A DNA stretch of 64,000 nt, taken from the IMG/VR virus record IMGVR_UViG_3300037067_020960. One strand, given 5' to 3'. A program made the translations under genes and the position numbers. Each line of letters begins with the position of its first letter. Within the stretch, counting starts at the first letter, position 1. The notes below the pieces were generated by a model. It was given only the letters and a program-made list of their open reading frames with translations. It was not told the origin of the DNA and searched no databases. Positions 1 to 46,181 of the stretch are shown here, one piece after another. The DNA comes from an uncultured virus (IMG/VR IMGVR_UViG_3300037067_020960) (taxonomy: Duplodnaviria; Heunggongvirae; Uroviricota; Caudoviricetes).

Positions 1-3000
1 TATAAAGATTATTTGTATAGGTTGGCCAATTAGTTGCTCCATACCAAGTAACAAAATCAAGTGAATAATGATGAACAGCACTTCCAGGATAGCTAACCGA
101 GCCAGAATATCCCTGAGCAATCAAATGATAAATTTCATTTGTTTTAAACATCATATGATCCCAATATTGCATATTTGTAACTGCAGCAAAAAGTGTAAAA
201 TTTCCCCAATTTGCTTCAATATGAGGATCTGCAGAACATTGAGCTAAAACAATTTGATATGTGCTGGAATAATAAGAAGCAATACTTGCTACCCATTTAT
301 TTTCATCAGTATCCCAAATAAAATTGATTGGACCAATTATACCATTTTCAAAATAATTATGCGTTGTTGTGTTAATTATAATAGAAGCCCATCCCCAATT
401 TTCTCCATCAATAGAAAAACTATGAAATACTCTATTAATTTCTTCTGCTTCTGATCGTTGAGCTACATAAAACATGTGATATTCATTATCAGATTTTTTA
501 ATAATTTTCATATCTCTTACCAAATAAGAATCATATCCATAAGAACCATTTGGATCAGTTTCTCCATTAATTGGTCTATGTAACCATCCGACAAGATATA
601 TATTTTGATCATATATGTCTTTAAGATTTTTTGATTTCATCATATATTCCATATAACGATTTTTAGGAGATGTATTGTAATAATTATTATAACTAAACCA
701 AGCATGAATTTCATATTCATCATTTATTTTTTTGATTTGATTTAAATATATTTGTCTATCTGCTGCCCATACAATAGGATTGAAATTTCCGCCAATAATT
801 TCCGCAGTTGAAAGATCATTATAATCATCATATACTAAAATTCCAATTCCATTAGCAAAATTATATTTTTCTGAATAACTTGGAGGAGTAAAAAATTCAA
901 AAATGCTTAAAATTTTATCAGCATATTTTCCATAATCACATCTATATGAATGAATAATAGATGTAATACTATAAGACACATCAGTTTTTCCTTCATAAGA
1001 AATTTTCGAATAATCTCCTAATCGTGTAGGCATTGAAAATGGATATGAAATTAGATTAGGAGGATTTTTATATGTATTATCTTCACTTAAAACAGTTTTT
1101 TCAAATAAATTGAGTCCATCGTCCGTTTGTGCACATACACTATATTTTATGATTCTATCATTATCAGAACCACCAGATGATACTTTGTAAATAAATGTAT
1201 ATTTATATGTAGAATTTTTTGGGTTTTTTATTAATCCAATTGGAGATGCTCCATTTGTATGTATAGAAATATTTACACTATCATCATGAGAAATTATTTC
1301 TTCAGTAGTAGACCAATAATCATAATCACCAAAAAGATCAAAAGATTCACTTCGTTCTATTGAAAAATAATATGGACCAGCACCTAATTGTTTTTGATAT
1401 AAAATAAACCATTTGTCATTTGTTTTTCCAAAACAAAAACCATCTGTGTATAAATGAATATTTACGCCATTATTTGGAACAATCAATCGTGGATTTGTCC
1501 AGATTATTCCGTCAATCGATTCCATTGTAGAAATATTCCATCCTAAATCTCCCGGAGTAGTAGAAGTATTGTTATATGTTGAAATAAAACAAATAAATTT
1601 TTGATATTCTTTTATCCAATAAATTTTTGGAGAATATACATGATAAGGATTTTGCTGATCATTATTATACCAAGTAATTTGAGTTCGAATTTCAGAAGTA
1701 TACATTGTAGAAATTTGATCATAATAATTTATAAAATCTTTTGTTTTTTTAATTTGAATATTATACCATCTATTACTATGTCCATCAACAACCCCAATGT
1801 AATATCTATTCCAGTAAGTTAGAAATTCTCCATCAACGAATGGATTTGGAATAACACATGCACAATAATTTGAATCTTGTTTTGTGTTGTCAGGAATTGA
1901 TTGAATTGTATTTAAATTATTAGTCCAATTTAGTGTTATTGAATTATTGGGATATGATGAAGAATAATTTTGAAGAGTTTTTCCATATCTTGAAGTAATT
2001 ATATTCCCATCAATTTTTAATTGCATATTATCAGGGCAATATGGCCAAAAAAGGTAATCTTTTTCTTCTTCAATTTTTATATTTCCTGTAATTTTTATAG
2101 CAATGTTTCCAGCATCTTTATCTATTTGAATTGGCGTTAATTCTTGAATATTATTTTGATTTGTTAAAGATAGAGAATCTATATTTTTTTCATAAACCGA
2201 TTTACCTTTTTCAATTAATTCTTGAAATTCAAATTCTGTATGAATATCAATTGGATCAACAGTGAGTATTTCAGCTTTTAATTCTGTAAAATGTAATCCT
2301 GTAGCATAATTTGATGAAGGAGATCCTATTGGAGGTTCAATATAATCATGAGATAATACAGCACTTGATGTTATCATATTTGAAATATTTAAATGAATAT
2401 TATTTTGAATTTTTAAAATAGGATTTTCTTCAAGATTTTTTGTATCAATAATAATTGGAATTTTTTCTTCAATTCCAATTTGTGTAGGTGCTAAAGCAAT
2501 TTGTTGATTTTTAAAAATTTTTATTAGTTTTAATTCCATTTTCGAACCTTGAAAATCGGTAGGCATTAAACGAATGTAATTGCAATATTCTTTAATTTTT
2601 ACAATGTCATAATTATTTACATTAGTTTTACCAATTCCAATATAACCATCTTTATTTTTCCAATCGATTCCATTAAATGACGTTTGTATAAAACCATTTG
2701 TTGCATATCCATCCCCTGTATAAGGAAAAATATAAATTTCTTCAATGTAAGTAGTTCCAGGAAAAGAAGTTGTGATTAATGGATTTAAACTAGATACTCC
2801 ATCTGCTATAAAATTATTAATAAAATTTTCTTCTCTTAAACAATGATGTAATGAATGAAGATTCACATCTTCTAACCATGGATTGTAATAAGATGTGGTT
2901 TTAATACCTTCAATTGTAACATGTTGATTTATAGGACTTTGATCAAAAGAATTAGGATCAGATAAAATTAATCTATTGTCAAGTGAAAATTGTGAATATA

Positions 3001-3034
3001 AATCAAATTGTTGTTCTTTTACAGAATTACTCAT
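1..3034 (-). CDS. Large putative virion protein (partial, >1010 aa): N-terminal discoidin/F5-8C-like region, then beta-propeller-like Asp-box repeats
   Basis: Absent from the ORF track because it has no stop in the window. ATG at 3034 (MSNSVKEQQFDLY...). Frame read as open where checked, down to base 2. Motifs IQTSFNGIDW..YIRLMP, and S/T-x-D-G-x-x-W-type motifs (SIDGIIW, SIDGENW, SLDFVTW). Confidence 0.75.
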   Translation of the reverse strand, partial: MSNSVKEQQFDLYSQFSLDNRLILSDPNSFDQSPINQHVTIEGIKTTSYYNPWLEDVNLHSLHHCLREENFINNFIADGVSSLNPLITTSFPGTTYIEEIYIFPYTGDGYATNGFIQTSFNGIDWKNKDGYIGIGKTNVNNYDIVKIKEYCNYIRLMPTDFQGSKMELKLIKIFKNQQIALAPTQIGIEEKIPIIIDTKNLEENPILKIQNNIHLNISNMITSSAVLSHDYIEPPIGSPSSNYATGLHFTELKAEILTVDPIDIHTEFEFQELIEKGKSVYEKNIDSLSLTNQNNIQELTPIQIDKDAGNIAIKITGNIKIEEEKDYLFWPYCPDNMQLKIDGNIITSRYGKTLQNYSSSYPNNSITLNWTNNLNTIQSIPDNTKQDSNYCACVIPNPFVDGEFLTYWNRYYIGVVDGHSNRWYNIQIKKTKDFINYYDQISTMYTSEIRTQITWYNNDQQNPYHVYSPKIYWIKEYQKFICFISTYNNTSTTPGDLGWNISTMESIDGIIWTNPRLIVPNNGVNIHLYTDGFCFGKTNDKWFILYQKQLGAGPYYFSIERSESFDLFGDYDYWSTTEEIISHDDSVNISIHTNGASPIGLIKNPKNSTYKYTFIYKVSSGGSDNDRIIKYSVCAQTDDGLNLFEKTVLSEDNTYKNPPNLISYPFSMPTRLGDYSKISYEGKTDVSYSITSIIHSYRCDYGKYADKILSIFEFFTPPSYSEKYNFANGIGILVYDDYNDLSTAEIIGGNFNPIVWAADRQIYLNQIKKINDEYEIHAWFSYNNYYNTSPKNRYMEYMMKSKNLKDIYDQNIYLVGWLHRPINGETDPNGSYGYDSYLVRDMKIIKKSDNEYHMFYVAQRSEAEEINRVFHSFSIDGENWGWASIIINTTTHNYFENGIIGPINFIWDTDENKWVASIASYYSSTYQIVLAQCSADPHIEANWGNFTLFAAVTNMQYWDHMMFKTNEIYHLIAQGYSGSVSYPGSAVHHYSLDFVTWYGATNWPTYTNNLY

Positions 3035-3047
3035 AAATGAAATTATA
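3035..3047 (-). promoter_or_regulatory. -10 element TATAAT 7 nt before the ATG (leaderless-type promoter)
   Basis: Minus strand reads CAGG-TATAAT-ttcattt-ATG, with no Shine-Dalgarno. Confidence 0.5.
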
Positions 3048-3101
3048 CCTGTTCAGAATTAATCTTGATGAATTTTTATAGTAGATTTTTCTATACACTA
3101 T

Positions 3102-3148
3102 GGTGAAGAGAAGATTTTTGCCCTCGTGGCAAAAATCTTCTCTTCACC
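3102..3148. repeat. Perfect 21-bp inverted repeat with 5-nt loop CTCGT
   Basis: ggtgaagagaagatttttgcc-ctcgt-ggcaaaaatcttctcttcacc. Confidence 0.95.
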
Positions 3149-3510
3149 TCCGCCCTCACGAGCTCGTCTCGTGAAGCGAGGGATCAGATCGGCTTGTCCG
3201 ATCCCCGAGCGGGGGCGGATTGACTTTTTTCTCGCGCGCGTTATAATAATTTATTAATATTTTTCGTTGCTTCGCACGATTATTTTTACTAATTTTACTG
3301 ATTAGAATTTAGCTCACTTCGTTCGCTAGAGAAACACGATGCGGAGCATCGATGTTTCTCGATGTAGTAGTAGTAAGTAGTAGTATTTAATTAATATAAT
3401 ATAATATTAATTAATATTAATATAATACTAATAACGCGTGTGCGTATGCCTGCGTACGCGCGTGCTCACGTATGCTCGCGCATTATGCATCTGCGCGCGC
3501 TACAAGGGGT
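3102..3510. other. Structured non-coding island, candidate replication origin
   Basis: Several GC-rich hairpins, a nearly pure A/T tract (~3385-3433) and a CG/TG alternating tract (~3434-3500), lying between divergent genes at the coding-strand switch. Confidence 0.5.
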
Positions 3511-3606
3511 ATACAGTTCGAAGGAATTGATTTTAAAAATTCAAAAAAATATATATGATTTTAAAAAATTTTTAATTTTATAGAAATATTACGGTATTAT
3601 TTTTTT

Positions 3607-3984
3607 ATGAAATCAAAAATTTTAAAAATTAAAAAACATCCATTTTCAGTATTTTCCACAGTAGATGGATTTAAATTTGTAGAAAATCGTATTATCGATG
3701 TTAATTTTTCAGAAAGAAAAAATCTATTAAAAGTCGTAACAGCATTGAAAAAAGTAATTACATGTTCTGAAGACCATAAAATTCAAACAATTAAATCAGG
3801 ATTGGTACCATTAAAACATATTCTAAAAAAAGCAGAGATGTTTTTTACAACTCCAGATAATTGCAAAATTATTGAAATAGATAAAATAACATCAGTAGAA
3901 AACTTTGGAGAACATGATTCATATGATTTAGTATTAGAAAAAGATCCACATAATTTTTTCTGTAATGGAATTTGTGTGAGTAAT
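3607..3984 (+). mobile_element. Split intein C-fragment (126 aa) lacking block A
   Basis: Block [10 protein letters not shown], block [19 protein letters not shown], block G CVSN followed by Ser+1 at 3985. No Cys/Ser1 block A; in-frame TAA at 3562-3564 upstream. Confidence 0.88.
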
Positions 3985-5049
3985 TCACATGCTATATCAT
4001 ATGGTACAGTATCATATTTGATGATGTATATTAAAACACATTACCCATTATATTTTTATTGTATTCAACTGGAAATATCTAGTGAAGATGAGTATAAAAA
4101 AATAATTGAAGAAGCATTACGAGAGAAGATTAAAATATCTCTTGTTGATATAAATCAATCAAAGGAAAAATTTGTAGTATACGGAAATAGTATAATATGG
4201 AGTATAAGAGGAATCAAGGGGTTGGGACCCGCAGCAGTAAATGGGATAATACGAAATCAGTCATTTAAAACATTAAATGGATTTTTTGAAAAATTAAGTG
4301 AAATGAAGTGTACAAAAACTTCAGTATATGCATTAATACGAGAAAATGCCTTTAAAGAATTTGGAACAAAAAAAGAAATATTAGATGCTTATTTATATTT
4401 TAGAAACGAACTTCCATTTGATTCAGATGAACAAATGGAAAAAGAAATTCAAAAATTTACAGAACAAAAACAAAAAGAAAATAAATGGAATAATACGGCT
4501 CAAAAAAGGGTAAAAATCGTAAGAAGAAAAAATATGGAACATAAGAAAGAATATGAAAAATTACAAAAGGAAATATTAATAGACGGAGAAATTGAAAAAT
4601 TTTATAAATACGCTGAAAAAATTTCAAAATATAAAAACACGAATGAAATACGAAAAAAATCAAAAGAATTAGACGAAATACGAAAAAATTATAATACGAT
4701 TAAATGGAAAATTTCGGATTTATCAGATTTATCAGAAGATATTTATTTACAAAATAAGAATAGAGTTGAATTGATTGCATTTCTAAGAGCTGAAAAAGTT
4801 GAAAGAAGTGCAGAAGATTTAGCTAAAAGGAAAAAACCATATTACAGAATACATACGGAAGATGAGACGGGAAAACTTTTACCAACTCCTACAATGTTTA
4901 CGCAAGAATATGAAAAATATGGAGAACTTATAAAAACTAATACAGAAGATGGAAAACCATTACGAATTATTTTAATAAAAAATGGAAAATGGTTTAATGT
5001 ATCATTAATCACTCCTATAAAAATATTTAAGGAGGTTTATTTTGGTTGA
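3607..5049 (+). CDS. dnaE: DNA polymerase III alpha (DnaE) C-terminal fragment fused to a split-intein C-fragment
   Basis: aa 1-126 are intein. The extein begins [17 protein letters not shown] (DnaE FNK|SHA..Y motif), followed by VDINQS, HhH IRGIKGLG and an OB-like end IHTEDETG. No PHP or palm domain. Confidence 0.9.
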
Positions 5050-18457: not shown

Positions 18458-18495
18458 ATACTCCAGATAGTTAATTTCTATCTGGAGTATTTTTT
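18458..18495 (+). terminator. Rho-independent terminator
   Basis: atactccagatag-ttaattt-ctatctggagtat followed by a T-run. Confidence 0.85.
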
Positions 18496-24623: not shown

Positions 24624-24974
24624 ATGAAAAAAAGATCATGGTTTTTAGGATTATTTCTTGCAATCCTTATGATTGCGGGATGCAATTTAACAAGTGGTGA
24701 CCTTGCGACAAAAGTCACGCAAATAAAAGATACTTTTGTAAAGTCTTATGTAGTTGTTGGCCAAACAATTCCAGTTCTTGAAGAAATTGAGAAATTGGAA
24801 TATATCAAACCAGAAATTAAAGACAAAATTGTTTTGGTGATTGATGGATTAAAAGTTGTTTATGAAAAAATTGGATCAATTGCTACATTTTTAGGTATTG
24901 ATGTTTCAGCTTCTAAAGATATAAAAGATTTACAAGCTTCTATAGAAGATCTAAAAATTTGTAAAGTTAATTAA
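24624..24974 (+). CDS. Lipoprotein
   Basis: MKKRSWFLGLFLAILMIAG|C lipobox; AAGGAG RBS. Confidence 0.75.
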   Translation: MKKRSWFLGLFLAILMIAGCNLTSGDLATKVTQIKDTFVKSYVVVGQTIPVLEEIEKLEYIKPEIKDKIVLVIDGLKVVYEKIGSIATFLGIDVSASKDIKDLQASIEDLKICKVN

Positions 24975-25013
24975 TATATGATTTGAAATTTTTATAAAAA
25001 GATATAAAAATCC

Positions 25014-25277
25014 TCATATACAAATCAATTTCGAATTTTGATTCATATACATTTCAAGAAAATTGGTCAGAATTTCTGACCAATTTTCTACTTGGGTAAA
25101 CCATTTACCCATAATTCTTTTAGCAATATTTATTGCTGAATTTAAATCTCTGTCAATTTCTATAAATTTATTCAATCTTACTCTTCTTATACTCAAATCA
25201 GAATTAAATTCTCTCTTTCCTGTTAAACAATTCTCTTGTGAAGTGTAAGCTTCATTTACTTTATAAAAATCTAATAC
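25014..25277 (-). pseudogene. tnpB: TnpB (IS200/IS605) C-terminal remnant
   Basis: KVNEAYTSQENC...LSIR...IDRDLNSAINI (RuvC-III), with an in-frame stop upstream and no start. Confidence 0.85.
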
Positions 25278-25551
25278 TTAAATTTTACATTAGTGATAAA
25301 TTATTTTTATTTTATTATTGAAAAGTAAAGAAAAATTTTTTCTCTTAAAACCAGTTTACCAATTTTCTAAAAGTGTTTGATCTGCTCTCTTACCCTCGTG
25401 TCATAAGGTTATACGATTTTATAAAAATAAAATTTTTTCAGGTATTTATAATCAGGACTTAAAATTAAAAAAGTTAGAAAAAAGTTGAAAAATATGGACC
25501 AAAAATTTTCAAAACTAAATTCAATGTTATTATCTTGGAGGATTATATTTT

Positions 25552-28092
25552 ATGTTTAAGACTCAGTTAGCATATGACAATTGGAAATCAAAATATCGTT
25601 ATGGAAAAGAAGAACCAATTGATACTTGGAAACGAGTAGCAAAATTTCTAGCATCAGTTGAAAAAGATCAAGATTATTGGACAGATAAATTTTTAAATAC
25701 GATAGTAAATTTTGATTCTAATAGAAATCCAATTGGATTAAAATGTACTCCTGGCGGGAGAATTACTGCGAATGCCGGAACCTCTTTTAAAACTGCAACA
25801 TTGGTAAATTGTTATGTCAATGGTCCAGTTACAAATGCTAAGATTTCTTATACGAGAACAAATTATACAAAAGAAGTTTCTTATCCTGTTGAAATAGTAA
25901 CTTCTGAATCTCCTGATAATCTTAATAATATTTTCTTAACGATTTTAGAACAAGCTAAAACTTTGGCATCTGAAGGTGGCTATGGAATCAATTTTAGTTT
26001 TATTCGTCCACGAGGTGCTCTCATTAATGGCGTTGGCATTCGTCATCCTGGAGTTGTTTCGTACATGCAAATTTGGGATGCAGCTTCAGAATGCATTGTC
26101 AAAGGCGATACAGATGGGTATAAAGATAAAATAAAAAATTATTTGTCTAAAGAAAATACTGACACTCTTAAAAAAATTGTGAAACAAATGGCTCGTAAAG
26201 GTGCCATGATGGGCGTTCTAGATATTAGTCATCCGGATATTGAAGAATTTGTGAAAGCAAAACAATCTTCTGGTAAATTAACAAAATTTAATATCTCAGT
26301 GGCTGTAGATGATAAATTTATGATTGCTGTTGAAACAGATGATTTTTATGATTTATCTTTTGGTGGAAAAGTGTTTAAAAAAATCAAAGCTCGTGAACTC
26401 TACAATCTGATCATGGAATCTACTTATAATAGAGCAGAACCAGGAATCATTTTTGTTGATAATGCTCATAAAAATAATCCTGTGAGTTATTTAGGAAAAT
26501 GTAATGCTTCCAACCCTTGCGGCGAAGTAATGGGTCTTGCAGATATCACATCAGTTTGTTTATTAGGGTCTGTTAATCTTACACAATATGTAAAAAAAGA
26601 TAGAACTTTTGATTTTGATCTTTACAAAGAAGATGTGAAGATTTTTACACGTATGTTAGATAATGTGAATGATTTAACATCTAATCCTTTGAGTTCATAT
26701 CAATGGGCTGTTAAGAATCTTCGTCAAATTGGCATGGGATTAAATGGTCTTGGGTCTGCATTAATCATGATGGGATTAAAATATGCATCTCTTGAGGCAA
26801 AAGATTTCATTAAAAAAGTTTGTTCATTAAAAGAAGATCTTACTTGGCAAACTTCTGCCGAATTAGCAGTAGAAAAAGGTGTTGTGTCTGTTTATAATAA
26901 AAAGAAATTCTTAAATACAGAATATTTTAAATCTTCCAGAATTACACAAAAAACAAAAGATTTAATTGAAAAAAACGGCGTAAGGAATTGCAAGACAACT
27001 ACTTACCCACCCAATGGGAATGCTTCGATTCTGAGTGATAATGTTTCAAATGGAATCGAACCAATTTTTAATCTTGAATATGAAAGAATTGTAATTACAT
27101 CTGAATGGCCAGAAGGCATGAATAAAGATAATGTTCAACAATTATTAAAACATAATAAGAAAAAAGATTACGAATATTGGAAAGACGAATACAAAGGAAA
27201 ACTTTATTATTACGAACCACATAATAGAGGTCTTTGCACTGTTTCGATAATTCGTGATTATGGATATCAATGGATTTTGGATAATTTTCCTGCAGAAAAA
27301 GCTGCCGAATATTTATCTACTACGACAAATTTATCAGTTCAAGATCATATAGATGTGCAAGAGATTGTTCAATATTATTGCAATCAATCTGTTTCAAAAA
27401 CTGTAAATCTTCCAAATGATTATTCTTTTGAAGATTTTAAAAATCTTTATATTGATGGATGGAAGAAAGGATTGAATGGATTAACTACGTATCGTGAAGG
27501 TTCTATGGAATCTGTAATTTCTAGCATTAAAAAAGCTGAAAAGTCTCGCGAAATTATGAAAACTGATATAAAACTTCCAGATGTATTTGTAAATGGTCCA
27601 ACGACAATCATTAAAAGAGAAGGCAAAAAGTTTTATATTCATTTTAGTTATTTACCCGAAGATGCGCAAATGAAATTTCCTGTTTGTTTATGGATTTATA
27701 CAAATGCTTCTTCAAAAGGTGCTTTAAAATTATGTAATAAAGCAGCAAAAGAATTGGCGAATCTTGCTCGTGGATTAGGAATTGAAAAATCTATAGTTGA
27801 AGCTGCTACAGAAAAAGCAGAAGATGATGAACCACATAACAAACTTGGGCGAATGATATCACTCAATTTAAGACATAATGTCCCAATTGAAAAAATTTAT
27901 GAGACTCTTTGTCATATTAATGGTGATAATATTTCTTCATTATTAACTGCAATCAGAAAATTTATTGCATCTGGAATGCCTGATGGAACAATAATCAAAG
28001 GGTATAAATGTCCTGACTGCAAAGGAGAAAATGTGATTCTAGAGAGTGGGTGTAAGAAATGCAGAGATTGCGGATTTTCAGGGTGTTCGTGA
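25552..28092 (+). CDS. nrdJ: Class II (adenosylcobalamin-dependent) ribonucleotide reductase
   Basis: PGGRITANAG, NCYV, GGYGINFS, NPCGE, CLLGSVNL, SKTVNLP, TTYREGS, C-terminal CPDC..GC..C..CG.S.C; no nrdB partner seen. Confidence 0.88.
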   Translation: MFKTQLAYDNWKSKYRYGKEEPIDTWKRVAKFLASVEKDQDYWTDKFLNTIVNFDSNRNPIGLKCTPGGRITANAGTSFKTATLVNCYVNGPVTNAKISYTRTNYTKEVSYPVEIVTSESPDNLNNIFLTILEQAKTLASEGGYGINFSFIRPRGALINGVGIRHPGVVSYMQIWDAASECIVKGDTDGYKDKIKNYLSKENTDTLKKIVKQMARKGAMMGVLDISHPDIEEFVKAKQSSGKLTKFNISVAVDDKFMIAVETDDFYDLSFGGKVFKKIKARELYNLIMESTYNRAEPGIIFVDNAHKNNPVSYLGKCNASNPCGEVMGLADITSVCLLGSVNLTQYVKKDRTFDFDLYKEDVKIFTRMLDNVNDLTSNPLSSYQWAVKNLRQIGMGLNGLGSALIMMGLKYASLEAKDFIKKVCSLKEDLTWQTSAELAVEKGVVSVYNKKKFLNTEYFKSSRITQKTKDLIEKNGVRNCKTTTYPPNGNASILSDNVSNGIEPIFNLEYERIVITSEWPEGMNKDNVQQLLKHNKKKDYEYWKDEYKGKLYYYEPHNRGLCTVSIIRDYGYQWILDNFPAEKAAEYLSTTTNLSVQDHIDVQEIVQYYCNQSVSKTVNLPNDYSFEDFKNLYIDGWKKGLNGLTTYREGSMESVISSIKKAEKSREIMKTDIKLPDVFVNGPTTIIKREGKKFYIHFSYLPEDAQMKFPVCLWIYTNASSKGALKLCNKAAKELANLARGLGIEKSIVEAATEKAEDDEPHNKLGRMISLNLRHNVPIEKIYETLCHINGDNISSLLTAIRKFIASGMPDGTIIKGYKCPDCKGENVILESGCKKCRDCGFSGCS

Positions 28093-42356: not shown

Positions 42357-42388
42357 AAACCAGGAGTTGAAAAAACTCCTGGTTTTTT
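42357..42388. terminator. Bidirectional intrinsic terminator
   Basis: aaaccaggagtt-gaaaa-aactcctggttt plus T-run, between convergent genes. Confidence 0.85.
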
Positions 42389-44162
42389 ATTTAAGTTGAA
42401 AAATTAAATTTCCACAATCCCAAATTCTATCGTAGCCATTGAGTTGCATGTTCTCCCATTCGGTGAGTTTGCAATCAAAAATTGGGAAAATCTTAGATAA
42501 TTTATATTTCTGATAAGAAATGCGGGATTCTAAATTAAAATGGTCTTTCATGTAAAAATAATTTGGACCCGAAATATTTGTCAATTTAAAACCATTTTTT
42601 AAGTATACATTTCCTGTTGAAAATCTTCTATCTGCATAAGTCATCAATGATTTAGAATTATATGTTTTGAGAAAATAGGATAAAAGCTTCGAAAAACCTC
42701 CAATTACATTGGTATTTAATTTATTGCAATATCTCAATAATTCATATTCATATTTCTTGTTGTATCTTGGTTTTCCTAATGTCATTAGAGAAATGAGCTC
42801 ATTATTGAGAAATAATCCTAATCTAATTTTAGAATTGATAGATCCTTGAATATGATTTTCATTTAAGAATTTCTCAGAATCTTTATGAGAAATTTCTTTT
42901 ATTTCACATTTTCTAGCAAATATTTTTTCTTTAATTAATCCTAATTTTGCTAATATGATAGATTTTACAATATCTTGTTTTTGATACCATTCATTTCCGA
43001 AAATATGAACTACTTGAATATCTTTATTTAAAAAATATTCTGATTTTTCAAGATGGTAAGCAGGATGTTTTCCTCCACTAATTTCTGAATGGGTATATAA
43101 ATCATTATATTCAATTCCAATATTTTTCAATGGAATCCAGACATCTAATTCATATTTATATTTTTTATTTTCATAAAATCTTTTATTTCTTTCAATCAAG
43201 ATGTATTGTTCTAGCCAATTCTGAATTTCTCGTTCTGTATGAGAAGTGCCATATAAAATTGGATCACATATTAAACATCGAGGGATTAATCCATTTTTTA
43301 CATATCCTTCGAAAACATTAGAACATTTTATGCATTGCCATTTATATTTTTGGATTTTCCCACCAACATATTCTTCTAATGTGAATAATGGTTTAACAAT
43401 TTTAAGATTTAATATATGGTTATTGTAATATTGTTTGGCATTATGGTTTTTAATAGATTTTTGAATTTTTCCAGAACAAAATGGATTTTCGACCCCATAT
43501 TTTTCTAAATTTCTTTTCCTGATTTTTTCTTTAATAATTTCAGAATTAAAAACCCATTCTACACCATATTTTCCTTGATTAGTTTTTTTAATCTTTTCTT
43601 TAATTATATTAGATTTCAAAGGATTATCAACTCCATAAATTTCAATATTAGTTTGTTTAATTTTTTCTCGAATAATTTTAGATTTTAATGGATGACCTTC
43701 GATATAATGATTTTCAAAAGTATTTTTTATTTTCTTTTTTACTTCTTCATTCGCAAAAGGATTTTCACATCCATATTTTTTCAAATTAGTTTGTTTAATT
43801 TGTTCTTTAATTACATCAGATTGAAAATGACATTTAGTTCCATAAATTTCAAGAGTCGTTTGAATTCTTTTTTCTTGAATTTTCCTTTTTTCTTCTTCGC
43901 TTCTATTTGCTATAGTCTGTTTCATCTTTACAGACACTTCTTTGTTCTTCATTGGATTATCACATCCATATTTTTCAATAGCTTTCTGTCTTTTTTGTTC
44001 TTTTACTTTGGGAAGTTGTGATGGATTGGTTACACCATATTTTTTTAGATAATATTCTTTACGACGTTGTAATTCTAGTCGTCTTCCTTTTTCTGATTTA
44101 CGACAATTTGAACTACAAAACAAATTTCTTGTTTCTTTCCCACAAATTAAACAATTATTCAT
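42387..44162 (-). CDS. Hef-like protein: Zn finger, KYGVENP repeats, PD-(D/E)XK/Vsr-like nuclease and C-terminal Mom-like GNAT domain
   Basis: CLICG..FCS..C; about 8 (K/I)YG(V/C)xNP repeats; ELDVW..IGIEYND.YTHS; ELLRYC..GGFSKLL..TYADRRFS.GNVY..GF..IWDCG. Confidence 0.75.
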   Translation of the reverse strand: MNNCLICGKETRNLFCSSNCRKSEKGRRLELQRRKEYYLKKYGVTNPSQLPKVKEQKRQKAIEKYGCDNPMKNKEVSVKMKQTIANRSEEEKRKIQEKRIQTTLEIYGTKCHFQSDVIKEQIKQTNLKKYGCENPFANEEVKKKIKNTFENHYIEGHPLKSKIIREKIKQTNIEIYGVDNPLKSNIIKEKIKKTNQGKYGVEWVFNSEIIKEKIRKRNLEKYGVENPFCSGKIQKSIKNHNAKQYYNNHILNLKIVKPLFTLEEYVGGKIQKYKWQCIKCSNVFEGYVKNGLIPRCLICDPILYGTSHTEREIQNWLEQYILIERNKRFYENKKYKYELDVWIPLKNIGIEYNDLYTHSEISGGKHPAYHLEKSEYFLNKDIQVVHIFGNEWYQKQDIVKSIILAKLGLIKEKIFARKCEIKEISHKDSEKFLNENHIQGSINSKIRLGLFLNNELISLMTLGKPRYNKKYEYELLRYCNKLNTNVIGGFSKLLSYFLKTYNSKSLMTYADRRFSTGNVYLKNGFKLTNISGPNYFYMKDHFNLESRISYQKYKLSKIFPIFDCKLTEWENMQLNGYDRIWDCGNLIFQLK

Positions 44163-44702
44163 TTAAGAATTTCTCCTTTTATGGGAGATACCTCTTTCTA
44201 ATTTTTCTTTTAATTCATCCCAACTTTTAGAAAATTCATGATTAGAAAAAGCTTCACGAAGCCCAGTAGATTGTTTAAGTCTTAGAACTTCATCTTCATC
44301 CATACCTAAATATTTAGAAATATCTGAATCAGACATTCCATTTTTTGAAAGAGTAACAACTATATTTGCATCACCATCGATTTTATGTTTTCCTCTGGCA
44401 CGATTAAATTGAACAGTAGCAGTCATACGTTCATTCATATTATGATTTAAAACAATAACAGGAACAACATTGCTTTTATAATGATCTCTCAATATTATAT
44501 ATCGATGATATCCATCAATAATGACATATTTTTCTTTTATTTTGTCATATATTACAACAATTGGATAACAAAAACCATTTTGATCGATTGAAGTTTTTAA
44601 TAAATCCATATTGACACAAGATACAAAATTAGGATTATAATCATTAGCTTCTACTAATTCTGTTTTTACAAATTGTATATCCATATTAAATTTTAGTGAC
44701 AT
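44163..44702 (-). CDS. ibrB: IbrB-like ParB/Srx N-terminal domain protein
   Basis: ANDYNPN, SI..NGF..PIVV, IIDGYHR, ATVQFNRARGKH, LGMDEDEVLRLKQ. Confidence 0.88.
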   Translation of the reverse strand: MSLKFNMDIQFVKTELVEANDYNPNFVSCVNMDLLKTSIDQNGFCYPIVVIYDKIKEKYVIIDGYHRYIILRDHYKSNVVPVIVLNHNMNERMTATVQFNRARGKHKIDGDANIVVTLSKNGMSDSDISKYLGMDEDEVLRLKQSTGLREAFSNHEFSKSWDELKEKLERGISHKRRNS

Positions 44703-45892
44703 TTAATTCCTCTTTTCAATTTGAGACTATCAAGAAGTTGATACCCTTTTTTAGATTCACCAAAACTGAGACGTTTCATCCAGAAATCATTTTTTTCGAG
44801 GGCACGAGCAATAACTTGCCAAGAGATATATTCTTTTGAATTTGAAACAGTTTTATCAGTAATATCTTGATTATATTTTTTCTTATGATATCTAAGAGTA
44901 ACTTCAATTTTATCTATATACCACAAAGCAATATCTAGATTCCTAAGAGAAATTGATTCTATGAGAAAACAACAATATTGTTCCCAAGTCATATTTTTAG
45001 GTTTATTTGTTTTAAGATGACCAAATAATTTACTTCTTGAATATAAAGCTCCACAATTTACTCCAGAAACTCGATTTATAATTTTTTCCCAAGTTTCTGG
45101 TTCTGTTTTAGCAAATAAATCCAATCCAATTCTTTGTTGAATTCCAAATGGCTGACAAATTCTCATATCGTGTATAGACCAACCACATTTATACATTTGA
45201 TCATATATTTTATTATAGGAAAAATTCATTAATCCAACACATTTCCAAATATCTTTTACATCCCAATCAAACATGGGATAAAATCTATATATTTGTTTGT
45301 TTCCATTTACACTCTCAGCTTGATGAATTGACCAACGATATCCTTTATAAGTTTCATTATAACGATTATTGATTGATATTCTTCGATCATAACTTTCTTT
45401 TGCTCTAATTCCAACACAACAGGCAATATTTTTTCCATTTCTATATTTTTTATAATGCCAATCAGAAAATAAAGCATAGAATTCGAAATCAGCCATACCT
45501 TTTTTGAACCATGAAAAATCATGATTAGATTCATTAATCGAATCAATTGGTATTTCTCGTGTCCAAATGCTTTTTTTATCTTGATCCCACATAATCCATT
45601 GAGGTTCAAAAAATGAACAAGCATTATCTTCTTCGAATGGTAAACAAATATGAAAGAAATGATGTAAATTAGATAAATGTTTTAATTCTTCAATATGAGA
45701 AACAGTGAATTTCGAAATGGCTTCTTGATCTAAAAACATAACATCGAATTTTTTATTTATTTTTTGTGCAACATGATTTGCTAATTGCACCATGACAGAA
45801 CTATCTTTTCCGCCAGATACAGAAAAATAAATATTTTCAAAATCTGAAAAAATGATTTCTAATCTTTTTAAAGTTGCTTCTAAAACATTCAT
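44693..45892 (-). CDS. ibrA: IbrA-like PAPS-reductase-family (PP-loop) protein with DUF3440-like C-terminus
   Basis: SVSGGKDS, GIRAKES..R, FYPMFDW...DIW, MRICQPFG, RVSGVN, KNDFW..RLSF. Start re-called to MNVLEA at 45892. Confidence 0.88.
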   Translation of the reverse strand: MNVLEATLKRLEIIFSDFENIYFSVSGGKDSSVMVQLANHVAQKINKKFDVMFLDQEAISKFTVSHIEELKHLSNLHHFFHICLPFEEDNACSFFEPQWIMWDQDKKSIWTREIPIDSINESNHDFSWFKKGMADFEFYALFSDWHYKKYRNGKNIACCVGIRAKESYDRRISINNRYNETYKGYRWSIHQAESVNGNKQIYRFYPMFDWDVKDIWKCVGLMNFSYNKIYDQMYKCGWSIHDMRICQPFGIQQRIGLDLFAKTEPETWEKIINRVSGVNCGALYSRSKLFGHLKTNKPKNMTWEQYCCFLIESISLRNLDIALWYIDKIEVTLRYHKKKYNQDITDKTVSNSKEYISWQVIARALEKNDFWMKRLSFGESKKGYQLLDSLKLKRGIKCH

Positions 45893-45905
45893 AATATCAG
45901 ATGTT

Positions 45906-46181
45906 CTAATGAGTTCTGGCGCGTGCGTCAATACATGCATCATTATCACAAATTTCTTTTAATGTTCCATCAAGTAAATTTAATTCGTTATGAATGACTC
46001 CTCCGCATTCACAAATTTCTGGAGGAAAATCACAGAAGGAACAATTTTTATCTCCTAAATGATGGAGGGATAAACATTGAGACTTAGGTGATGAATTATA
46101 TTTCGGAACAAAACAATTAGATGACAAATCAGGACCCATTTCATTACAAATGTGAATAATCGCACAATTTTTACAATCCAT
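45906..46181 (-). CDS. Small Cys-rich hypothetical protein
   Basis: Multiple CxxC/CxC motifs. Confidence 0.55.
   Translation of the reverse strand: MDCKNCAIIHICNEMGPDLSSNCFVPKYNSSPKSQCLSLHHLGDKNCSFCDFPPEICECGGVIHNELNLLDGTLKEICDNDACIDARARTH

What the first reader, a model, noticed from the sequence alone, without database searches (positions are those of the whole stretch)
3102..3510. Hairpin / AT-tract / alternating-purine-pyrimidine island at the strand switch: candidate replication origin
Seen: three stems share a near-identical pentaloop (21-bp stem with CTCGT; tcacgag-CTCGT-ctcgtga; gatcgg-CTTGT-ccgatc), the latter two nested in ccgccc/gggcgg. There are also GCGNAGC mini-hairpins (GCGAAGC on minus at 3269-3275; gatgc-GGA-gcatc at ~3338-3351), a ~50-nt A/T tract and a ~65-nt CG/TG alternating tract, all in a very AT-rich genome. 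Known: d(GCGNAGC) hairpins are exceptionally stable in ssDNA and occur in phage origins and promoters; alternating tracts favour Z-DNA. Inference: an origin or packaging/recombination site read as DNA structure, placed at the head of the replication operon.
Basis: partly seen in the sequence, partly recalled or inferred. Interest (0 to 1): 0.7.

Follow-up and report, generated by a model that had tools for sequence, protein, structure and literature searches.

The report
Structured phage intergenic region, possible origin
The longest non-coding gap in this piece of an uncultured phage holds perfect DNA hairpins, a strong promoter, and the easiest and hardest DNA to melt in the whole window side by side, which fits a replication start site fired by transcription but could also be an elaborate gene-control region.

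Summary
The gap 3035-3606 lies between a leftward 1011-aa gene and the rightward dnaE-C/sigma/recA operon, and it is the longest non-coding stretch of the window. It holds the window's longest perfect hairpin (21 bp, 3102-3148), a three-way hairpin junction (3150-3218), the two highest-GC islands, the longest pure A/T run, the least stable 50-bp duplex (3384-3433), the two most stable ones, and the densest purine/pyrimidine alternation (3434-3500). Three hairpins share the loop CTCGT/CTTGT. All 59 stem pairs are Watson-Crick.

New here is a near-consensus sigma-70 promoter (TTGACT-16-TATAAT, 3220-3247). It fires rightward through about 350 nt with no ORF or ribosome site and across the A/T tract.

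The GCGNAGC mini-hairpins are not above chance. The alternating tract folds no better than shuffles. GC skew follows coding strand, so it says nothing about an origin. There are no Rfam matches and no usable relatives or RNA data. Identical DNA occurs in runs from other studies, so the island is not an assembly artefact.

Best reading (about 0.35): a transcription-activated origin-like control region, analogous in layout to lactococcal c2 ori and T4 oriF. Chief rival (about 0.3): a plain early promoter with a structured leader. Function is untested.

The parts
3035..3606 (.). Whole non-coding region between the divergent genes: the 1011-aa ORF (2..3034, minus strand) and the dnaE-C ORF (3607..5049, plus strand).
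   Evidence: At 572 nt it is the longest gap between called ORFs in the window.
3102..3148 (.). Perfect 21-bp inverted repeat with the 5-nt spacer CTCGT. It can form a hairpin or cruciform. The arms are purine-rich and pyrimidine-rich respectively.
   Evidence: ssDNA fold -24.3 kcal/mol, z -11.05. 21 of 21 pairs are Watson-Crick.
3150..3218 (.). Three-way junction. The closing stem is CCGCCC/GGGCGG. Hairpin 3156-3174 has loop CTCGT and hairpin 3187-3203 has loop CTTGT. It contains the 10-bp palindrome ACGAGCTCGT and three GATC sites.
   Evidence: z -3.0 and -3.4. All 24 pairs are Watson-Crick. GATC at 3182, 3187 and 3200.
3220..3247 (+). Sigma-70-type promoter-like site, TTGACT-16 nt-TATAAT. 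The spacer holds CGCGCGCG. The predicted start is near 3253-3257.
   Evidence: 11 of 12 consensus matches. It is one of 9 such sites on both strands of the window. This is a consensus match only; activity is not shown.
3329..3360 (.). 14-bp hairpin with one bulge and the loop GGA. It contains the gatgc-GGA-gcatc core of the finding.
   Evidence: ssDNA fold -13.0 kcal/mol, z -4.55. 14 of 14 pairs are Watson-Crick.
3364..3385 (.). (GTA)7 trinucleotide array.
3384..3433 (.). A/T tract rich in TpA steps and the candidate DNA unwinding element. It holds a 44-nt pure A/T run and a 21-nt unit repeated 2.2 times (3387-3432), and it is quasi-palindromic.
   Evidence: It is the least stable 50-bp duplex of the window: -41.8 kcal/mol against a median of -59.1. 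Tandem repeat; inverted repeats I1 and I16.
3434..3500 (.). CG/TG alternating purine-pyrimidine tract, Z-DNA-prone by its sequence.
   Evidence: Window maximum of alternation. The most stable 50-bp duplex of the window is 3450-3499. Its fold is no better than shuffles. A 181-nt contig of run X5 covers 3420-3602 with 2 other letters and 2 gaps.
3532..3581 (.). Second A/T-rich low-stability block next to the dnaE-C start. It includes the weak promoter-like site 3532-3559. A TATTAT hexamer lies further right at 3595-3600, 6 nt before the ATG.
   Evidence: Second least stable 50-bp window. The site scores 9 of 12. There is no Shine-Dalgarno sequence before 3607.

Best explanation
This is a single-copy control region whose signals are read largely as DNA structure. 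The most likely function is a transcription-activated replication origin at the head of the phage's replication/recombination operon.

Proposed mechanism, all of it inferred: host RNA polymerase starts at the near-consensus promoter 3220-3247. It transcribes about 350 nt that encode nothing, crossing the easiest-to-melt DNA of the window (3384-3433). That tract is clamped on both sides by the most stable DNA. Negative supercoiling behind the polymerase opens the tract, and the transcript or an R-loop primes or licenses DNA synthesis, as in T4 oriF/oriG and lactococcal phage c2 ori. The strand-symmetric hairpin cluster just upstream (3102-3218) has three different stems carrying the same pentaloop. 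It would be extruded by the same supercoiling between the divergent transcription units and recognised by a structure-specific protein for loading or regulation.

Shown: the sequence anatomy and its statistical extremity. Inferred: promoter activity, melting, hairpin extrusion, priming and protein recognition.
For: 1. Location. It is the longest non-coding gap in the window (572 nt). It lies between a leftward gene and a rightward operon that encodes a DnaE C-terminal piece, a sigma factor, RecA, SbcD/SbcC-like proteins and an exonuclease.
2. Promoter. TTGACT-16-TATAAT at 3220-3247 scores 11 of 12. It points into about 350 nt with no ORF >=50 aa and no Shine-Dalgarno sequence, while many of the window's other genes carry AAGGAG-like sites.
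3. Duplex stability. The least stable 50-bp duplex of all 64 kb lies 130-180 bp downstream of that promoter. The two most stable 50-bp duplexes flank it at 3190-3239 and 3450-3499. The longest pure A/T run is also here.
4. Strand symmetry. All 59 predicted stem pairs are Watson-Crick, so the hairpins form equally on both strands. This is expected for selection at the DNA level and unusual for RNA stems.
5. Shared loops. Three hairpins with unrelated stems share the loop CTCGT/CTTGT. They include the only neighbouring identical-loop pair among 67 such hairpins in the window.
6. Layout analogues.
   - The ori of phage c2 lies in a 611-bp non-coding region between divergent early and late blocks. 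Promoter EP1 lies about 360 nt upstream of EP2 and makes a non-coding transcript implicated in transcription-mediated initiation (PMC7150918, passages; NC_001706 annotation).
7. The DNA is real. Pieces with no differences, covering 3066-3216 and 3247-3397, occur in contigs of run X2, and 3257-3407 in a contig of run X3. Both runs come from studies other than the likely source run.
Against: - There is no functional or comparative evidence at all.
- GC skew gives no support, because it tracks the coding strand. Coding-strand skew is positive for + and - genes alike, and third-position skew of the left gene (0.13) is no higher than that of minus genes elsewhere.
- There are no iterons; only weak two-copy direct repeats were found.
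- No recognisable initiator, helicase-loader or primase gene was found in the adjacent operon.
- The promoter is only a consensus match. Nine sites of equal score occur in the window, most of them inside genes. The local count of promoter-like sites is not above shuffles: 7 against 6.2 +/- 2.0.
- The c2 non-coding transcript region is not hairpin-rich (fold z -0.17). The analogy is therefore one of layout only, and it does not explain the hairpin cluster or the alternating tract.
- The whole genome is not held. It is unknown whether the element is unique in the genome.
Confidence: 0.35

Rival explanations
1. The region is purely transcriptional. A strong host-type early promoter (3220-3247) drives a long structured 5' leader for the dnaE-C/sigma operon. 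The leader would serve mRNA stability, RNase III-type processing or translational control. The upstream hairpin cluster would act as an insulator or roadblock, or as part of the leftward gene's leader. There is no role in replication.
For: - The operon contains the phage sigma factor, which the host polymerase has to transcribe. A host-type promoter is therefore expected here.
- The + strand RNA of 3250-3610 folds better than the - strand: -95.6 against -78.1 kcal/mol, with z -4.1 and -3.8.
- The dnaE-C start has no Shine-Dalgarno sequence, which would fit unusual translational control.
- Divergent promoter regions are commonly A/T-rich.
Against: - The 21-bp hairpin and the three-way junction lie upstream of the -35 hexamer, so this promoter does not transcribe them.
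- 59 of 59 stem pairs are Watson-Crick with no G.U, which is atypical for RNA-selected stems.
- The alternating tract has no specific fold beyond its composition. The +/- strand energy difference follows from its TG-versus-CA content.
- No Rfam family reaches its gathering score. With the loose threshold, 17 matches were listed, all far below gathering and mostly generic hairpin families.
- The reading does not explain why the extremes of duplex stability coincide here.
Confidence: 0.3
2. A discrete small non-coding RNA gene lies on the + strand, at about 3053-3230. It would have an A/T-rich single-stranded 5' part that is antisense to the leader of the leftward gene, then the 21-bp hairpin, the three-way junction and a U-run.
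For: - A promoter-like site TTTACA-17-AATTAT with an upstream TG lies at 3018-3046 (9 of 12).
- RNA 3095-3235 folds at -71.7 kcal/mol, z -7.58.
- TTTTTT lies at 3225-3230, after the closing stem.
- GC-rich islands in A/T-rich genomes are often RNA genes (general knowledge).
Against: - The U-run starts 6 nt after the stem, and the terminator scan did not call it.
- The promoter match is weak.
- The stems have no G.U pairs.
- A perfect 21-bp duplex would be an RNase III substrate (general knowledge).
- There is no Rfam match and no tRNA or tmRNA.
- The - strand folds equally well (-75.4 kcal/mol, z -8.41), so nothing marks a strand.
Confidence: 0.12
3. The region is a packaging signal, a genome terminus or a site-specific recombination or resolution site that is recognised as a palindrome.
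For: - It is single-copy and palindrome-rich.
- An imperfect palindrome is centred on ACGCGCGT at 3446-3473, with 17-nt arms 76% complementary (pair I20). By recall only, it resembles CG-centred telomere-resolution sites.
Against: - No terminase, recombinase or protelomerase gene was recognised next to it, and the adjacent left gene has no family match.
- The palindrome around 3460 is imperfect.
- A single 23,999-nt contig of the likely source run reads straight through the region, although contigs cannot show molecule ends.
Confidence: 0.08
4. The region has no present function. It would be foreign GC-rich DNA, or a palindrome formed recently by replication slippage or template switching, sitting in a tolerant intergenic gap.
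For: - A perfect 21-bp inverted repeat with no mismatches could be evolutionarily young.
- The composition (up to 66% GC) is alien to a genome of 29% GC.
- No homologue was found anywhere.
Against: - Several independent extremes (hairpins, shared loops, A/T run, alternating tract, promoter) are packed in order into one gap.
- A slightly different copy of 3420-3602 (2 other letters, 2 gaps, one change in a predicted hairpin loop) exists in a run from a further study.
- By inference, GC-rich sequence should decay quickly under the A/T mutation pressure implied by a third-position GC content of 10-20% in most genes.
Confidence: 0.1

Closest known systems
Origin of replication of Lactococcus Ceduovirus phages (c2, bIL67 and 923 types)
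   Same: - A non-coding region of about 600 bp lies between divergently transcribed gene blocks: 611 bp in c2 and 572 bp here.
- A near-consensus host-type promoter reads into about 350-360 nt with no ORF or ribosome site.
- A second promoter-like site lies just before the first gene.
- In c2 the non-coding transcript is implicated in transcription-mediated initiation.

Sources: PMC7150918 passages; NC_001706 annotation and sequence.
   Different: - There is no sequence similarity, and no phage-database match to the region at all.
- The c2 transcript region is not significantly structured (z -0.17). It has no perfect long palindrome, no pure A/T run of this length and no alternating CG/TG tract.
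- c2 is a 22-kb siphovirus. This is a large myovirus-like phage with a baseplate wedge protein and a DnaE-type polymerase.
- Function here is untested.
Bacteriophage T4 oriF (uvsY) and oriG (34): promoter plus downstream unwinding element, R-loop primed
   Same: A promoter is followed by an A+T-rich, easily unwound element. The mechanism needs no iterons or initiator protein, which matches their absence here (PMC3016281 passages).
   Different: - The minimal T4 origins are about 100 bp with the unwinding element directly downstream of the promoter. Here the A/T tract lies 130-180 bp downstream, behind a hairpin and a (GTA)7 array.
- T4 uses MotA-dependent middle promoters. The site here looks like a plain sigma-70 promoter.
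- T4 origins are not described with flanking cruciform or Z-prone tracts in the passages read.
Iteron/initiator origins (phage lambda ori, theta plasmids)
   Same: An A/T-rich unwinding tract lies next to palindromic DNA near replication genes.
   Different: There are no iteron array and no adjacent initiator gene.
Hairpin-form promoters of phage N4 virion RNA polymerase, and hairpin-recognising ssDNA initiation signals (G4-type, plasmid sso)
   Same: Several short GC-rich hairpins have different stems but a conserved loop, which suggests structure-specific protein recognition of extruded DNA. The comparison is recalled; the anatomy is.
   Different: - N4 hairpins have 3-nt loops and need a giant virion RNA polymerase (recalled). 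The loops here are 5 nt.
- No such polymerase was seen among the 30 window proteins scanned.
- The d(GCGNAGC) motif is not enriched.

Membership tests
Transcription-activated phage origin (T4 oriF/oriG, c2 ori type) | A promoter that reads into non-coding DNA | tested here: inconclusive
   TTGACT-16-TATAAT scores 11 of 12 at 3220-3247, followed by about 350 nt with no ORF or Shine-Dalgarno sequence. This is a consensus match only, and 9 equal-scoring sites occur in the window.
Transcription-activated phage origin (T4 oriF/oriG, c2 ori type) | An A+T-rich DNA unwinding element downstream of that promoter | tested here: met
   3384-3433 is the least stable 50-bp duplex of the 64-kb window and holds the longest pure A/T run.
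Transcription-activated phage origin (T4 oriF/oriG, c2 ori type) | The fragment supports replication, or a persistent R-loop or transcript primes DNA synthesis | not testable with these tools
   This needs cloning, infection or R-loop mapping. No RNA or raw-read data were available.
Transcription-activated phage origin (c2 type) | Position between divergent early and late gene blocks | tested here: inconclusive
   The divergent arrangement is shown. The right block is a replication/sigma operon. The left gene is 'late' only by a weak lead: a glycoside-hydrolase-like Atlas score of 0.76, below the level that counts as evidence.
Iteron/initiator-dependent origin | An array of direct repeats (iterons) and an adjacent initiator gene | tested here: not met
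   Only weak two-copy direct repeats, the 2.2 copies of the A/T unit and (GTA)7 were found. No initiator-like family was found in the neighbouring ORFs.
Replication origin in general | A GC-skew inflection that is independent of gene orientation | tested here: inconclusive
   Skew follows the coding strand for + and - genes alike. Only 3 kb lie to the left of the element, and the whole genome is not held.
Curated RNA families (Rfam 15), tRNA/tmRNA | A match at the gathering score, or an ARAGORN call | tested here: not met
   There were 0 matches at gathering in the window. With the loose threshold, 17 matches were listed, all far below gathering. No tRNA or tmRNA was called.
Intrinsic terminator | A GC-rich stem followed within 0-2 nt by a T-run | tested here: not met
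   Neither the 21-bp hairpin nor the junction was called. The T-run at 3225-3230 begins 6 nt after the stem. The only calls are the 6-bp mini-hairpin 3337-3351, on both strands.
Z-DNA-forming tract | A long alternating purine-pyrimidine run rich in CG/TG | tested here: met
   Runs of 16 and 15 alternating bases, and 86% alternation over 66 nt, the window maximum. Actual B-to-Z transition cannot be tested with these tools.
d(GCGNAGC) stable mini-hairpin elements | Motif present above chance | tested here: not met
   5 found in the window against 2.61 +/- 1.56 expected; 12 of 100 shuffles reach 5. The fold has z -1.35.

The most novel reading that the evidence does not exclude
The island is a supercoil-driven, three-structure DNA switch made of a cruciform, a melted A/T tract and Z-DNA. 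Extruded hairpins with different stems but one conserved pentaloop (CTCGT/CTTGT) would be recognised by a so far unknown structure-specific phage protein, such as a primase, an initiator or a polymerase. That protein would start replication or early transcription. This would be a hairpin-read origin or promoter in a large myovirus-like phage, a lineage unrelated to N4, with no iterons and no known initiator.
Probability: 0.12. Interest if true: 0.7.

Novelty: new variant of a known kind. Interest (0 to 1): 0.4.

Why it matters
Origins of large uncultured phages are almost never defined. If this region is an origin, a one-copy element that can be recognised from simple physical signatures would give a practical rule for finding origins in metagenomic phage genomes. 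The signatures are the least stable duplex clamped by the most stable ones, a strong promoter, and strand-symmetric hairpins with a shared loop. Such an element would also give a compact test bed for how transcription-generated supercoiling drives cruciform, melting and Z-DNA transitions in vivo. If it is only a promoter and leader, it is an unusually ornate but ordinary control region.

Tried and rejected
**Relatives for covariation: none usable.**
- blastn of 2900-3700 against phage records gave no match.
- blastn of 3095-3520 against plasmids gave no match.
- An exact 36-nt pattern was absent from viral contigs.
- Loci for the DnaE-C protein, or for its 3-sequence alignment A1, were not found in viral, metagenome or genome contigs.
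- P0001 as query returned only two distant DnaE loci, L001 and L002.
- The sigma-factor query returned two loci, L004 and L005, that are not syntenic.
- The 377-aa ORF gave nothing.
- The 1011-aa ORF gave no match in phage records.
- Only 2 close homologues of DnaE-C exist among 5 hits. Their contigs could not be fetched.

**Whole genome.** It is not held, so no genome-wide skew could be computed.

**Sequencing runs.**
- No RNA holder was listed.
- Only contigs could be laid, so there is no information on molecule ends, depth gradients or transcripts.
- In run X5, several bins of 2000-5000 outside its 181-nt contig had no cover. That is not evidence of absence.

**Earlier findings of this scan.** None by place or by sequence.

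**Shared phage promoter motif.** A k-mer count over 30 upstream regions returned only the Shine-Dalgarno motif.

**Readings rejected.**
- tRNA-like RNA, tmRNA or any Rfam RNA.
- Intrinsic terminator.
- A restriction-site or GATC cluster as a Dam/SeqA-type signal. GATC is not rare in the window: 207 observed against 169 expected, with only 3 copies in the region.
- Assembly artefact, because identical pieces occur in other studies.

**Intein comparison.** A gut-phage contig (H17) that matches the intein and DnaE part proved to hold a contiguous 832-aa ORF. It is no comparator for the island.

Full report
**Context.** The window has 29.4% G+C. It is a fragment of a large tailed phage. PHROG and Pfam matches include a baseplate wedge protein, tail-fibre proteins, ribonucleotide reductase, RecA, SbcC/SbcD-like proteins, an exonuclease and a sigma factor. 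No whole genome is held for it. A groundwater metagenome run holds the stretch in full and may be its source. Landfill metagenome runs from other studies hold pieces of it.

The finding lies in the gap 3035-3606. On the left is a leftward ORF of 1011 aa (2..3034), which has no family match. On the right is a rightward ORF of 480 aa (3607..5049), which starts the operon dnaE-C, sigma factor, three unknown ORFs, recA, sbcD, sbcC and exonuclease. At 572 nt this is the longest non-coding gap in the window.

- The arms 3102-3122 and 3128-3148 are 21 nt long and 100% complementary around CTCGT. This is the longest perfect hairpin in the window; the next is 15 bp. As single-stranded DNA it folds at -24.3 kcal/mol with z -11.05.
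- Directly after it, 3150-3218 folds into a three-way junction on either strand. The closing stem is CCGCCC/GGGCGG. Inside are tcacgag-CTCGT-ctcgtga and gatcgg-CTTGT-ccgatc. For 3095-3235 the fold z is -7.6 on the + strand and -8.4 on the - strand as RNA, and -9.6 as DNA.
- Of 67 perfect hairpins with a 5-nt loop and a stem of at least 6 bp in the 64 kb, three lie within these 100 nt. They include the only neighbouring pair with identical loops.
- A further 14-bp hairpin lies at 3329-3360 (z -4.55). It is followed by (GTA)7.
- Next comes an A/T tract with the longest pure A/T run of the window (44 nt, 3384-3427) and a 21-nt unit repeated 2.2 times.
- The tract 3434-3500 has the highest purine/pyrimidine alternation in the window: 86% over 66 nt against a median of 45%.
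- All 4 CGCGCG and all 3 GCGCGC of the window, 9 of its 20 CGCG and 7 of its 21 GCGC lie in 3102-3510.
- The two GC islands, 3094-3258 (up to 66%) and 3417-3538 (up to 61%), are the highest in the window.

Two components do not stand up.
- GCGNAGC is not enriched: 5 found against 2.61 expected, and 12 of 100 shuffles reach 5. The GCGAAGC mini-hairpin is not significant (z -1.35).
- The alternating tract folds no better than dinucleotide-preserving shuffles (z -0.16 and +0.62). Its property is the alternation itself, not a particular hairpin.

**Is the DNA real?** Contigs from run X2 match 3066-3216 and 3247-3397 with no differences, and a contig from run X3 matches 3257-3407 with no differences. 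Both runs come from studies other than the likely source. A contig from a further study, run X5, covers 3420-3602 with 2 other letters and 2 gaps. One of the changes, C>T at 3450, falls in a predicted loop. The island is therefore not a chimeric assembly.

1. A near-consensus sigma-70-type promoter, TTGACT-16-TATAAT, lies at 3220-3247 on the + strand (11 of 12). It directly abuts the hairpin cluster and points into the rest of the gap.
   - From a start near 3253 there are about 350 nt without an ORF of 50 aa or more and without a Shine-Dalgarno sequence. Many of the window's other genes have AAGGAG-like sites.
   - Caveat: nine sites of equal score occur in the window, mostly inside genes. 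The local number of promoter-like sites is not above shuffles.
2. A nearest-neighbour stability scan places several extremes in this one gap.
   - The least stable 50-bp duplex of the whole window is 3384-3433 (-41.8 kcal/mol against a median of -59.1).
   - The second least stable is 3532-3581.
   - The two most stable are 3450-3499 and 3190-3239.
3. All 59 pairs of the three significant structures are Watson-Crick, with no G.T. Both strands can therefore form them equally well.

**Tests of the origin idea.**
- GC skew is uninformative. Cumulative skew rises from about 3 kb, but it also turns at about 43, 47, 52 and 53 kb, wherever genes change strand.
- Per gene, coding-strand skew is positive for + genes (mean 0.16) and for all eight - genes (0.04-0.22). 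The left gene's third-position skew (0.13) is not raised as a bidirectional origin would predict.
- There are no iterons. No initiator-like family was found in the operon's unknown ORFs.
- Comparative evidence could not be obtained. All searches for related DNA or syntenic loci failed.
- No Rfam family, tRNA or tmRNA matches.

**Closest analogues.**
- In lactococcal Ceduovirus phages the origin lies in the non-coding region between the divergent early and late blocks. That region is flanked by promoters PE1 and PE2. PE1 makes a non-coding transcript thought to act in transcription-mediated initiation, and the cloned region supports plasmid replication (PMC7150918, passages).
- In the c2 record the region is 611 bp, with EP1 about 360 nt upstream of EP2. 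The geometry here is similar: 572 bp, and about 350 nt from the strong promoter to the gene. A weak promoter-like site (3532-3559, 9 of 12) and a TATTAT hexamer 6 nt before the ATG lie in between.
- The analogy is one of layout only. The c2 transcript region is not significantly structured (z -0.17) and has no long perfect palindrome or alternating tract.

**Verdict.** The anatomy is real, extreme for its window and single-copy within it. It is better explained by selection on DNA physical properties than on an RNA fold.
- Best reading (0.35): a transcription-activated, origin-like control region. The hairpin cluster would be a structure-specific protein site.
- Main rival (0.30): an ornate early promoter and leader with no role in replication.
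- Lesser rivals: a small RNA gene at about 3053-3230 (0.12), a non-functional or foreign remnant (0.10), and a packaging or recombination site (0.08).

The DNA-level reading gains support. The skew test it proposed is confounded, the mini-hairpin argument fails, and the origin function itself remains untested.

**Seen in passing.** The gene just downstream is not a whole polymerase gene.
- Its first 125 or so residues match the C-terminal part of inteins. Profile hits are to Npu DnaE intein chains (E 8.9e-7 and 2.2e-6) and to DnaB inteins (E 2.2e-5 and 1.4e-4). Pfam Intein_splicing scores E 0.0013, below its cut-off.
- These residues run straight into DnaE sequence that aligns to Thermus DnaE from about residue 813.
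- Both homologues start at the same methionine.
- No N-terminal DnaE half was recognised among the proteins of the window that were scanned.
- This looks like a naturally split dnaE with an unusually long C-intein piece. The island therefore sits at the head of a half-gene.

Noticed in passing
window 3607-5049 (+): The 480-aa ORF looks like the C-terminal half of a split dnaE. Residues 1 to about 125 match the C-terminal part of inteins: PDB profile hits to Npu DnaE intein chains (E 8.9e-7 and 2.2e-6) and DnaB inteins, and Pfam Intein_splicing at E 0.0013, below its cut-off. The sequence ...[13 protein letters not shown] then continues as DnaE from about Thermus residue 813. Because the intein piece is long, the N-intein would be very short, an atypical split site by recall. 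No DnaE N-half was recognised among the window proteins scanned. Two homologues (44% and 41% identity) share the same start. A gut-phage contig carries a contiguous 832-aa version.
   Followed up: partly
window 3034 (-) and 3607 (+) start codons: Both genes that flank the island lack a Shine-Dalgarno sequence, although many of the window's genes have AAGGAG-like sites. Each has a -10-like hexamer 6-7 nt before its ATG (ggTATAATttcatttATG and cggTATTATttttttATG). This would fit leaderless mRNAs. The idea is untested, and the -35 hexamers are poor.
   Followed up: partly
window 2-3034 (-): This ORF of 1011 aa, open at the window edge, has no Pfam, PHROG or phage-record match. The protein Atlas gives only a weak lead (0.76) to a cluster carrying glycoside hydrolase 43 and F5/8 type C domains. 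It is possibly a tail-associated depolymerase.
   Followed up: partly
window 3420-3602, run X5: A 181-nt contig from a further study covers the alternating tract and the A/T-rich block before dnaE-C. It differs by only 2 other letters and 2 gaps, including C>T at 3450. This may be a conserved copy in a related genome, but it could not be extended.
   Followed up: no
window 42387-45949 (-): A minus-strand cassette interrupts the plus-strand genes. It has a homing/HNH endonuclease-like gene (591 aa), a ParB-like nuclease-domain gene (179 aa) and a PAPS-reductase-like gene (418 aa). It may be a DNA-modification or mobile module.
   Followed up: no
window 25057-25089 and 18458-18490, 42357-42385: These are the other long perfect hairpins of the window. 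A 15-bp stem lies in the 24974-25552 gap. Stems of 13 bp and 12 bp are followed by T-rich tails and look like ordinary terminators.
   Followed up: no
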